Assembly: GCF_045037415.1 (NCBI RefSeq)
Contig: NZ_CP173438.1
Reading direction: 5' to 3' (one strand)
DNA: 64,000 nucleotides
DNA from: Escherichia coli
GTDB lineage: Bacteria > Pseudomonadota > Gammaproteobacteria > Enterobacterales > Enterobacteriaceae
In this document: in pieces, positions 49,113-50,225 of the stretch
Layout of the letters: the number at the start of each line of letters is the position of its first letter
Numbering within the stretch: position 1 is the first letter of the stretch
Notes under the pieces: model-generated
Database searches by the model: none
What the model was told of the DNA's origin: nothing
What the model saw: only the letters and a program-made list of their open reading frames with translations
Program-made: the position numbers and the translations under genes

Positions 49113-50225
49113 TTACCTGTCAGTCATCCGATATTCCACGCTATGTGCTTCATCAGGTTGAGGAACTTCCAGCCTTGAGGCCATCCGCATCACGACCGCT
49201 TCAGGAACTGCATACTCGCGTCTGGCATTTTGCTGGTTCCATTGCGCCCATGGCACTTCCAGATAAACGATTTTTACTCGTGCGCCGTAAGCCGTAAACA
49301 GACTGATGAGCTGGCTGCGCAGCTGGCGGGTAATGTTCGTTGCATTCCAGATGAACGGCTTTTTCTGGCGTAAAAAAACGCGCGCCTCTTCTTTTGCCTG
49401 TTGCACAATACGCCCGGTGGCGGTTTTGTCGTCCGGACTGGCATTGATTCGCCGCCGCATATCATCAAGGCTGATAACGTCCATTCCCTGGCACTGTTCA
49501 CTGATATAGCGATCTTTGCCCATACCCGGTAAGCCACACAGCAAAATAACCTCAAAAGGTTCAGCCTCCCAGGGAACAAAATCAGGAGAACTTTGCTCAT
49601 GAGTCAGGTAGTGCCAGCGTGCGGAATCAGAAACGAACGGGCGCATTTTTCCCCAGCATTGTTGCTCATGGCAAAACAGCTCGAACAGATCGATGCGTTC
49701 CAGCATTGATTGCTGATCCGGGCTTTGGCGACCAAGCAGATCGGCACGAGCAAGCAAAGCGAGCAGACGCGTGTCGATGCGCATTGCAGCCGTGAGCAAC
49801 AAACGCTCCGGTTCCGGACGTTCCAGTAACCATAGCGGTAACCCATGCAGACGCACCAGTGCAACAATTTGCTCGCGCAGCACGAACGGCGTTGGGATAT
49901 CGCGCCATAAAATTTGTCGAGCCGTCAGTTCGCCCCGACGAGCATGACCAGGAGACTGAATACGTCCGTTTTCCTGCACGGTAGTGCTGCGCTTTTCAAC
50001 ATCATGCAATAACGCCGCCGCCCATAAAACTTCCTGCTGTTGAGCGGGGAGTTGCTGGAATTCTGGCAGAGTAATGAGGGCGTTAAGCACCATTTCGGTA
50101 TGTACGCCGACGTCGCCTTCACCATGATGCTCAGGGTCTTGTGGCGTGTGATGCATCTCCTCAACCCAGCTAAAACGCTGACGTAGCGCCGACCAGCGTT
50201 TATCGTCGGTAAGTTGCCAAATCAT
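49113..50225 (-). CDS. HD-Pnk-like bifunctional end-healing enzyme: N-terminal HD phosphoesterase plus C-terminal P-loop polynucleotide kinase-like domain
   Basis: 370 aa; HD signature residues ([27 protein letters not shown]) in N-terminal half; P-loop-like GLPGMGKD and downstream WNATN (reminiscent of the DNTN motif of Pnk-type kinases) in C-terminal half; ATGA start/stop overlap with upstream ligase gene. Confidence 0.75.

What the first reader, a model, noticed from the sequence alone, without database searches (positions are those of the whole stretch)
49113..50225. HD-Pnk homolog carries non-canonical kinase motifs ([13 protein letters not shown])
The P-loop has Asp where Ser/Thr is expected after the Walker lysine. 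The presumptive DNTN-type motif reads WNATN. Either this kinase domain uses a variant catalytic arrangement, or it is degenerate and only the HD phosphoesterase is active. The HD-region histidines and the HD dyad look intact.
Basis: seen in the sequence. Interest (0 to 1): 0.45.

Follow-up and report, generated by a model that had tools for sequence, protein, structure and literature searches.

The report
RNA-repair kinase with swapped aspartate
The odd kinase motifs are real, but they are the normal signature of a known family of nucleic-acid end-repair enzymes (HD-Pnk). Its lab-tested founding member has the same motifs, so this E. coli gene is an ordinary, probably active member rather than a broken kinase.

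Summary
**Observation confirmed.** The 370-aa ORF at 49113-50225 (-) reads GLPGMGKD (residues 231-238) and WNATN (293-297). In canonical polynucleotide kinases these read GxxGxGK[S/T] and xDxTN.

**It is a family trait, not a defect of this gene.**
- The protein is 52% identical over its full length to Runella slithyformis HD-Pnk, the biochemically characterised prototype.
- I recovered the Runella gene; it reads GLPGTGKD and FNATN.
- Every close homolog examined keeps GKD (one GKN) and N-[AS]-T-N.
- The other catalytic residues (K237, D254, R257, T296, R336) and the HD metal ligands are conserved.
- dN/dS is about 0.1 or less in both domains wherever dS could be estimated.
- As in Runella, an RNA-ligase-like gene overlaps the start of the ORF.

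**The cassette.** The two genes form a 2.1-kb accessory segment between emrB and luxS. It is present in 998 of 5426 complete E. coli genomes.

**The one new observation.** Among 144 diverged family members, the residue after the P-loop lysine and the Walker-B residue switch together:
- Asp/Asn: 110
- Ser or Thr/Asp: 18
- Ser/Asn: 4
- Asn/Asn: 5
- Asp/Asp: 0

The two classes are interspersed on trees. This suggests that one carboxylate has moved within the Mg2+ site. That mechanism is inferred, not shown.

The parts
49113..50225 (-). HD-Pnk ORF, 370 aa. ATG at 50223-50225, stop at 49113-49115. RefSeq annotates it 'ATP-binding protein'.
   Evidence: It is 52% identical over its full length to Runella HD-Pnk.
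49596..50225 (-). N-terminal HD phosphoesterase domain (about residues 1-210), with H34, H42, H74-D75, H94, H127 and D162.
   Evidence: The NCBIfam HDIG and CCA-enzyme HD-region matches are below their curated cut-offs. Pfam HD is also weak (E = 0.009, below its cut-off). The listed residues are invariant in 70-144 homologs. The model is all-helical with pLDDT >= 95.
49116..49565 (-). C-terminal P-loop polynucleotide kinase domain (residues 221-370).
   Evidence: Pfam AAA_33 at E = 8.6e-32. phmmer matches C. thermocellum Pnk and T4 Pnk. Foldseek target TM-score 0.72-0.74.
49512..49535 (-). P-loop GLPGMGKD (residues 231-238). D238 occupies the position held by Ser/Thr in canonical kinases.
   Evidence: Codons read; alignment; conservation.
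49452..49472 (-). SLDDMRR. D254 is the putative general base and R257 the putative acceptor-phosphate contact. They align with C. thermocellum D38/R41 and T4 D35/R38.
   Evidence: D is present in 141/144 and R in 141/144 family members.
49335..49349 (-). WNATN (residues 293-297). N294 sits at the Walker-B position, where C. thermocellum has D78 and T4 has D85. T296 aligns with the acceptor-phosphate contact T80/T86.
   Evidence: The strand 291-294 in the model ends at N294.
50222..50929 (-). RNA-ligase-family ORF, 235 aa. Its stop overlaps the HD-Pnk start (ATGA). Nucleotidyl-transferase motif I, KLDGEN (K44), lies at 50783-50800.
   Evidence: Pfam RNA_ligase at E = 1.2e-27. It is 57% identical to the Runella ligase-like protein. 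A ligase lies immediately upstream of HD-Pnk in 79 of 80 genome loci; L076 gave only a 23-aa fragment match.
49068..51185 (.). The accessory segment: 2118 nt that replace the 57-nt luxS-emrB spacer found in K-12-like strains.
   Evidence: It is present in 998 of 5426 complete E. coli genomes.
49081..49107 (.). GC-rich hairpin (GCCGGGC...GCCCGGC) followed by TTTT, between the convergent luxS and HD-Pnk stop codons. It is a likely terminator for luxS and possibly works in both directions.
   Evidence: Read directly from the sequence. The terminator scan did not flag it, because the loop is longer than 8 nt.
51045..51136 (-). Conserved non-coding block upstream of the ligase gene. It contains a candidate promoter (TTGTTT-17-TATCTT) and a leader with an invariant hairpin (CTGAGC-loop-GCTCAG) followed by GTTGTT.
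   Evidence: No Rfam family matches.

Best explanation
The ORF is the E. coli ortholog of HD-Pnk, a two-domain nucleic-acid end-healing enzyme. It is translationally coupled to an ATP-dependent ligase-like protein in a two-gene heal-and-seal cassette.

**HD domain.** The N-terminal domain (metal ligands H34, H74, D75, D162) removes 2',3'-cyclic, 3' or 2' phosphates.

**Kinase domain.** The C-terminal P-loop domain phosphorylates 5'-OH ends. The proposed residue roles are:
- K237 bridges the beta and gamma phosphates of the NTP.
- D254 activates the 5'-OH as general base.
- R257 and T296 hold the first phosphodiester of the acceptor.
- R336, in the lid, contacts the gamma phosphate.

**The unusual motifs.** GKD and WNATN are the standard active-site configuration of this family, not decay. 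My proposed reading is that the single carboxylate which canonical kinases keep at the Walker-B position (T4 D85, C. thermocellum D78) has moved to the residue after the P-loop lysine. There, D238 would take over the Mg2+-ligand role of the canonical Ser O-gamma, and N294 would keep the hydrogen bond without adding a second negative charge.

**Shown versus inferred.**
- Shown here: orthology, conservation, purifying selection, the coupled substitution pattern, and the same motifs in the Runella gene.
- From the literature: kinase and phosphoesterase activity of the Runella enzyme.
- Inferred: activity of the E. coli protein, the metal-ligand role of D238, and the biological substrate.
For: **Orthology.** The protein is 52% identical to Runella HD-Pnk over 368 aa (E = 7e-139). 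The ligases are 57% identical. The Runella locus I recovered (Tpt1, MTase-HIT, a 151-nt gap, ligase, overlapping HD-Pnk) matches the published description (PMC6097658).

**Same motifs in the prototype.** Runella reads GLPGTGKD, SLDDIRR and FVFNATN.

**Conservation.**
- In the first 120 database hits, every protein that covers the motifs keeps GKD (one GKN) and N-[AS]-T-N.
- Among 144 diverged representatives, K237 is kept in 143, D254 in 141, R257 in 141, T296 in 133 and R336 in 138.

**Selection.** dN/dS against other Enterobacteriaceae, where dS could be estimated, is 0.07-0.11 for the kinase domain and 0.056 for the HD domain; most inter-genus dS values were saturated.

**Coupling of the two positions.**
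- Counts: Asp/Asn 110, Ser or Thr/Asp 18, Ser/Asn 4, Asn/Asn 5, Asp/Asp 0. Fisher p = 1e-18.
- Canonical-type members are no closer to each other than to Asp/Asn members.
- At least 14 parsimony changes at the Walker-B position are needed in every one of 60 bootstrap NJ trees, including trees built from the HD domain alone.
- No third alignment column tracks the class.

**Why these two positions matter in canonical enzymes.**
- Ser22 O-gamma is the only protein ligand of Mg2+ in C. thermocellum Pnk, and Ser22 is essential (PMC3902929).
- Ser16 and Asp85 are both essential in T4 Pnk (PMC2831316).
- The Ser/Thr after the lysine and the Walker-B Asp form a hydrogen-bonded pair in P-loop NTPases generally (PMC9599734).

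**Fold.** The best PDB matches to the model are polynucleotide kinases.
Against: - No assay exists for the E. coli protein.
- I could not read the Runella paper (PMC5237116 is not held). I therefore do not know whether the authors mutated or discussed the P-loop Asp. Details of its activity rest on a later summary by the same group and on my memory of the abstract.
- No HD-Pnk structure is in the PDB, and I could not measure distances in the model. The D238-Mg2+ contact is therefore conjecture.
- For T4 Pnk the authors ascribed a structural role, not a metal-related one, to Asp85.
- The 5 Asn/Asn and 4 Ser/Asn members have no carboxylate at either of these two positions, which does not fit a strict 'exactly one carboxylate' rule.
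- The Runella ligase-like protein and D. radiodurans DRB0100 did not ligate any substrate tested, so the 'seal' half of the cassette is unproven.
- NJ trees at 35-50% identity are poorly resolved, so the number of independent switches is uncertain.
Confidence: 0.8

Rival explanations
1. The kinase domain is a degenerate pseudo-kinase. Only the HD phosphoesterase works, and the P-loop domain survives as a nucleic-acid or NTP-binding scaffold.
For: Both positions that differ are individually essential in canonical polynucleotide kinases: T4 Ser16 and Asp85 and C. thermocellum Ser22. The E. coli protein has never been assayed.
Against: - The same residues occur in the Runella enzyme, which is described as an active 5'-OH kinase.
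- K237, D254, R257, T296 and R336 are nearly invariant.
- dN/dS in the kinase domain is about 0.1 or less where it could be estimated.
- Asp/Asn is the majority state in the family, 110 of 144, which is not the pattern of sporadic decay.
Confidence: 0.05
2. The kinase is active, but D238 and N294 are not a relocated metal-site carboxylate. Instead they tune something else, such as donor promiscuity, metal preference or suppression of futile NTP hydrolysis. Mg2+ would be held through water, as in nucleotide-monophosphate kinases that have Gly after the P-loop lysine.
For: - Families with Gly at this position use a water as the Mg2+ ligand (PMC9599734).
- Asn/Asn and Ser/Asn members exist. One Asn/Asn member still sits in a methyltransferase-ligase-HD-Pnk operon.
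- The T4 authors considered Asp85 to be structural.
- From my memory of the Runella abstract, that enzyme accepts any NTP.
Against: The exclusion of Asp/Asp (0 observed against about 15 expected if the positions were independent) and the recurrent joint switching argue that the two side chains share one function and one charge budget. Canonical members of the same family, such as D. radiodurans DRB0098, are also active kinases, so the swap is not needed for a new substrate class.
Confidence: 0.3
3. The Asp/Asn and Ser/Asp forms are just two old clades of the family. On this view the apparent coupling is shared ancestry rather than functional compensation.
For: Representatives are only 35-50% identical and the NJ trees are weakly resolved. 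Raw contingency tests ignore phylogeny.
Against: - Canonical members are as similar to Asp/Asn members as to each other. For example, P0295 is 38% identical to its best canonical match and 47% to its best Asp/Asn match.
- At least 14 changes are needed in all 60 bootstrap trees, including HD-only trees.
- No other alignment column distinguishes the classes (best uncorrected p = 6e-4). Two ancient clades should differ at many columns.
Confidence: 0.1

Closest known systems
Runella slithyformis HD-Pnk (Munir & Shuman 2017, J Bacteriol 199:e00739-16)
   Same: - Same architecture: N-terminal HD domain, C-terminal P-loop kinase.
- 52% identity over the full length.
- Same GKD, SLDD-RR and NATN motifs.
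- Same overlapping upstream ligase-like gene, 57% identical.
   Different: - In E. coli the cassette has only two genes. The adjacent Tpt1 and MTase-HIT genes of Runella are absent from this site.
- Runella has Phe where E. coli has W293.
- The E. coli protein is uncharacterised and annotated only as an ATP-binding protein.
Deinococcus radiodurans DRB0098 (PNKP; Blasius et al. 2007, PMC1997131)
   Same: - Same HD + Pnk architecture, in an operon with a ligase-like gene (DRB0100).
- 5'-kinase activity was shown, and the R371K mutant is impaired.
   Different: - Only about 28-31% identical.
- It has the canonical GSGKST and WDATT motifs.
- A macro-domain/PARG gene lies between the ligase and the kinase.
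Clostridium thermocellum Pnkp kinase domain and phage T4 Pnkp kinase domain
   Same: - Same fold (target TM-score 0.72-0.74).
- Same Lys, general-base Asp, Arg, Thr and lid Arg.
   Different: - They have Ser after the P-loop lysine and Asp at the Walker-B position, both essential.
- Their phosphatase partner is a calcineurin-type or HAD domain rather than HD.
- The domain order differs.
Nucleotide-monophosphate kinases with Gly after the P-loop lysine
   Same: This is the other documented exception to the 'strictly conserved' Ser/Thr at this position in P-loop enzymes (PMC9599734).
   Different: In those enzymes the side chain is simply lost and a water takes the Mg2+ site. Here a carboxylate is gained, and the Walker-B Asp is neutralised at the same time.

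Membership tests
HD-Pnk end-healing enzymes (prototype: Runella slithyformis) | Full-length sequence homology to the prototype | tested here: met
   52% identity over 368 aligned residues, E = 7e-139. The prototype gene was recovered from CP002859.1.
HD-Pnk end-healing enzymes (prototype: Runella slithyformis) | N-terminal HD domain with His...His-Asp...Asp metal ligands | tested here: met
   H34, H74, D75 and D162, plus H42, H94 and H127, are invariant or nearly so. The Pfam HD match itself is below its curated cut-off (16.8 against 22 bits).
HD-Pnk end-healing enzymes (prototype: Runella slithyformis) | C-terminal P-loop polynucleotide kinase domain with Lys, general-base Asp and Arg | tested here: met
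   AAA_33 at E = 8.6e-32. K237, D254 and R257 align with C. thermocellum K21, D38 and R41. Fold match.
HD-Pnk end-healing enzymes (prototype: Runella slithyformis) | ATP-dependent ligase-like gene immediately upstream, overlapping the HD-Pnk start | tested here: met
   ORF 50222-50929 (-) has a Pfam RNA_ligase match and the KLDGEN motif, and overlaps by ATGA. The same arrangement is seen in 79 of 80 loci.
HD-Pnk end-healing enzymes (prototype: Runella slithyformis) | 5'-OH kinase and 2',3'-phosphoesterase activities | not testable with these tools
   These need purified protein. Activity is inferred from conservation and dN/dS.
HD-Pnk end-healing enzymes (prototype: Runella slithyformis) | Linked Tpt1 and MTase-HIT genes (a feature of the Runella cluster; probably not defining) | tested here: not met
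   In the window the cassette is flanked by emrB and luxS. A related methyltransferase-ligase-HD-Pnk operon exists elsewhere.
Canonical T4 / C. thermocellum-type polynucleotide kinase active site | P-loop GxxGxGK[S/T], with Ser/Thr as the Mg2+ ligand | tested here: not met
   Asp is at position 238.
Canonical T4 / C. thermocellum-type polynucleotide kinase active site | Asp at the end of strand 3 (T4 D85, C. thermocellum D78) | tested here: not met
   Asn is at position 294.
Canonical T4 / C. thermocellum-type polynucleotide kinase active site | DxxR general base and acceptor clamp, Thr of xTN, and lid Arg | tested here: met
   D254, R257, T296 and R336.
Known anti-phage defence systems (PADLOC) | Match to any PADLOC protein model | tested here: not met
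   No hit for either protein at E <= 0.01.

The most novel reading that the evidence does not exclude
HD-Pnk would be a natural exception to the rule that P-loop phosphotransferases keep Ser/Thr after the Walker lysine and Asp at Walker B. On this reading most members have moved the carboxylate from Walker B onto the P-loop (Asp/Asn), and lineages have switched between the two layouts many times.

A possible route is Ser/Asp, then Ser/Asn, then Asn/Asn, then Asp/Asn. All of these states are observed, and Ser-to-Asn-to-Asp is possible in single-nucleotide steps from AGY codons. The doubly charged Asp/Asp state is never seen.

If D238 is an inner-sphere Mg2+ ligand, this family would be a ready-made system for testing how the Walker A / Walker B pair shares charge and protons.
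Probability: 0.4. Interest if true: 0.5.

Novelty: new member of a known kind. Interest (0 to 1): 0.3.

Why it matters
**For annotation.** The gene pair, labelled 'ATP-binding protein' and 'RNA ligase family protein' in about 18% of complete E. coli genomes, can be named as an HD-Pnk / ligase end-healing cassette orthologous to the Runella system. E. coli would be a genetically tractable host for finding out what that system repairs. The ligase partner has so far failed every ligation assay reported.

**For enzymology.** The family shows that the 'strictly conserved' Ser/Thr-Asp pair of P-loop enzymes can be replaced by Asp-Asn in an active kinase, and that the two positions change together. 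Four point mutants would test this.

Neither point changes how RNA repair is understood. The original anomaly dissolves into a family trait.

Tried and rejected
**Getting the Runella sequence and paper**
- The Runella HD-Pnk paper is not held under its PMC id or PubMed id. Burroughs & Aravind 2016 is also not held.
- The single genome-contig scan kept only the best 80 of 548 relatives, and Runella was not among them. One of its search patterns was the WNATN peptide, so that set is biased towards the variant. I did not use it for the covariation count.
- A second protein search seeded with a Dyadobacter homolog did not list Runella either.
That led to its database entry and then to the genomic locus.

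**Searches that found nothing useful**
- PADLOC: no match for either protein.
- Literature searches for 'GKD' with P-loop or Walker A terms, and for C. thermocellum Asp78, returned nothing relevant.
- Rfam at gathering and at permissive thresholds found nothing in the leader.
- A scan for a third covarying residue found none.

**Points rejected or withheld**
- The Walker B defined in the Grc3/Clp1 paper is DxxQ, which matches the general-base DxxR motif here and not the DATN motif. I therefore did not use its D-to-N data.
- The idea that the kinase motif lies elsewhere in the protein is rejected: only one GxxGxGK motif aligns to the kinase models.
- I could not obtain model coordinates, so I report no D238-N294 distance.

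Full report
**What is at the coordinates**

The window is Escherichia coli. It contains gshA (46841-48397, +), the MicA sRNA (48407-48478, -) and luxS (48547-49062, +). On the minus strand it has emrA, emrB (51187-52734), a 235-aa ORF (50222-50929) and the 370-aa ORF of the finding (49113-50225). The last two overlap by ATGA.

- The 370-aa protein matches Pfam AAA_33 at residues 226-355 (E = 8.6e-32). It matches HD and HDIG models weakly at the N-terminus.
- The 235-aa protein matches Pfam RNA_ligase (E = 1.2e-27) and carries the nucleotidyl-transferase motif KLDGEN.

Reading codons gives G-L-P-G-M-G-K-D at residues 231-238, S-L-D-D-M-R-R at 252-258, W-N-A-T-N at 293-297 and H-D at 74-75.

phmmer aligns the C-terminal domain to the Clostridium thermocellum Pnkp kinase (4gp6, E = 2.5e-4) and to T4 Pnk. 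In that alignment:
- D238 falls on the P-loop Ser.
- D254 and R257 fall on the general-base Asp and its Arg partner.
- N294 falls on the Asp of VDATN.
- T296 falls on the Thr of VDATN.

An AlphaFold model built on 70 homologs is very confident (pLDDT 97.1, pTM 0.94). Its best PDB matches are the C. thermocellum kinase, mammalian PNKP, Mucorales RNA kinases and T4 Pnk. No HD-Pnk structure is in the PDB.

**Why the two residues looked alarming**

- In C. thermocellum Pnk, Ser22 O-gamma is the only protein ligand of the catalytic Mg2+, and Ser22 is essential (PMC3902929).
- In T4 Pnk the six essential kinase residues are Lys15, Ser16, Asp35, Arg38, Asp85 and Arg126 (PMC2831316). The E. coli protein differs at the equivalents of Ser16 and Asp85.
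- A survey of P-loop NTPases calls the Ser/Thr after the Walker lysine and the Walker-B Asp the only strictly conserved, hydrogen-bonded pair. It lists Gly in nucleotide-monophosphate kinases as the common exception (PMC9599734).

**It is a family trait**

- In the best 120 database hits, which run down to 54% identity and span Enterobacterales and Bacteroidota, every sequence that covers the region has GKD (one GKN) and N-[AS]-T-N.
- All 80 genomic loci fetched carry ligase-homologous sequence directly upstream, a full-length gene in 79.
- The decisive check was the characterised prototype. The Runella paper is not held, so I reached the gene indirectly through the PDB entry for Runella Tpt1 (7kw8), its database record and its genomic locus.
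- That locus reads Tpt1, MTase-HIT, a 151-nt gap, ligase, then an overlapping 368-aa HD/AAA_33 gene. This is the arrangement published by the Shuman laboratory (PMC6097658).
- The Runella protein reads GLPGTGKD, SLDDIRR and FVFNATN. It is 52% identical to the E. coli protein over its full length. The ligases are 57% identical.
- PMC6097658 describes Runella HD-Pnk as a purified, biochemically analysed bifunctional 2',3'-phosphoesterase and 5'-OH polynucleotide kinase. From my memory of the 2017 abstract, the kinase needs Mg2+ and accepts any NTP.

**Not degenerate in E. coli**

- Against the same gene in Phytobacter, Klebsiella, Kosakonia, Enterobacter and Superficieibacter, dS is saturated and dN is 0.14-0.22.
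- Where dN/dS could be computed it is 0.07-0.11 for the kinase domain and 0.056 for the HD domain.
- K237, D254, R257, T296, R303 and R336, and the HD residues H34, H42, H74, D75, H94, H127 and D162, are kept in 133-144 of 144 diverged homologs.

**The coupled switch**

An exhaustive HMMER search of 1.84 billion cluster representatives gave 562 proteins at E <= 1e-30. I tabulated the 144 full-length sequences: the representatives among the best 150, plus the E. coli, Runella and D. radiodurans proteins. The residue after the lysine and the Walker-B residue pair as follows:

| Residue after lysine / Walker-B residue | Count |
|---|---|
| Asp / Asn | 110 |
| Ser or Thr / Asp | 18 |
| Ser / Asn | 4 |
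| Asn / Asn | 5 |
| Asp / Asp | 0 |
| Other combinations | 7 |

- The Fisher test gives p = 1e-18.
- This is not simply two clades. Canonical members are no more similar to each other than to Asp/Asn members.
- At least 14 parsimony changes at the Walker-B position and at least 18 at the P-loop position are needed in every one of 60 bootstrap NJ trees. This holds even for trees built from the HD domain alone.
- No third alignment column tracks the class.
- D. radiodurans DRB0098 is a canonical-type member (GSGKST, WDATT) with demonstrated 5'-kinase activity (PMC1997131). Both layouts therefore occur in enzymes reported as active kinases.

My interpretation is that one carboxylate is required in the Mg2+ site. 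It can sit on the P-loop or at Walker B, and two are not tolerated. This is inference. The Asn/Asn and Ser/Asn members do not fit a strict version of it.

**Context and likely role**

- The two genes lie on a 2118-nt segment that replaces the 57-nt luxS-emrB spacer of K-12-like strains.
- The segment is present in 998 of 5426 complete E. coli genomes.
- It occupies the same emrB-luxS site in several other Enterobacteriaceae genera.
- The family also occurs on megaplasmids, and with its ligase in a 462-kb uncultured phage.
- The architecture points to repair of breaks with 5'-OH and 2',3'-cyclic or 3'-phosphate ends, such as those left by ribotoxins.
- The substrate is unknown. The ligase partners from Runella and Deinococcus adenylylate or look competent but have ligated nothing tested.
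- Neither protein matches a PADLOC defence model.

**Verdict**

The sequence reading and the homology call were right. The suspected anomaly is the normal active-site signature of HD-Pnk enzymes. The gene is an uncharacterised but ordinary member of a known family. The only new element is the tight, apparently recurrent Asp/Asn versus Ser/Asp exchange, which is easy to test by mutagenesis.

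Noticed in passing
window 51045-51136 (-), upstream of the ligase gene: A non-coding block of about 90 nt is conserved across E. coli and six loci from other Enterobacteriaceae genera (nhmmer E = 1e-14 to 1e-25), although synonymous sites between the same loci are saturated. It contains a candidate promoter (TTGTTT-17-TATCTT), the block CTTCCATTCAC, and an invariant terminator-like hairpin (CTGAGC-loop-GCTCAG) followed by GTTGTT. RNAalifold pairs UCCAUU in the leader with AAUGGA at the ligase ribosome-binding site, but without covariation support. No Rfam family matches, and the block was not found upstream of the cassette outside Enterobacteriaceae. It may be an attenuator or leader controlling the repair cassette.
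   Followed up: partly
window 49068-51185: The ligase / HD-Pnk pair is an accessory indel. K-12-like and O157 strains have only a 57-nt luxS-emrB spacer with a different terminator hairpin. The same emrB-ligase-HD-Pnk-luxS arrangement occurs in Phytobacter, Klebsiella spallanzanii, Kosakonia, an Enterobacter species and Superficieibacter. The site is therefore old or repeatedly reused.
   Followed up: yes
L089 (LR756500.1, a 462-kb uncultured phage), 2273-4041: A jumbo phage carries the same ligase (40% identical) directly upstream of an HD-Pnk (34% identical) with GKD and WNATN. This fits a role in countering RNA-cleaving host defences.
   Followed up: partly
P0218, P0233, P0324, P0329, P0331 (Asn/Asn); P0302, P0313, P0339, P0361 (Ser/Asn): Nine family representatives have no carboxylate at either of the two coupled positions. 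P0218 (GKN / WNATN) still sits in a methyltransferase-ligase-HD-Pnk operon (L085). P0339 (GKS / WNATN) stands alone between solute-binding-protein genes (L086). Whether these are active intermediates is unknown.
   Followed up: partly
window 48407-48478 (-): The MicA sRNA lies between gshA and luxS (Rfam RF00078, 83.9 bits), as expected for E. coli.
   Followed up: yes
L081 (D. radiodurans pMP1), 3500-6203: In Deinococcus the cassette has a macro-domain/PARG gene (DRB0099) between the ligase-like gene and HD-Pnk. A 2025 paper links that gene to reversal of RNA ADP-ribosylation. Runella instead links Tpt1 and MTase-HIT. The accessory genes around the ligase / HD-Pnk core vary by lineage.
   Followed up: partly
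search_dna_similar, plasmids collection, hits H16 and H17: Two 4-Mb Proteus mirabilis records in the plasmid collection are evidently chromosomes. Plasmid counts for this gene are therefore slightly inflated.
   Followed up: no
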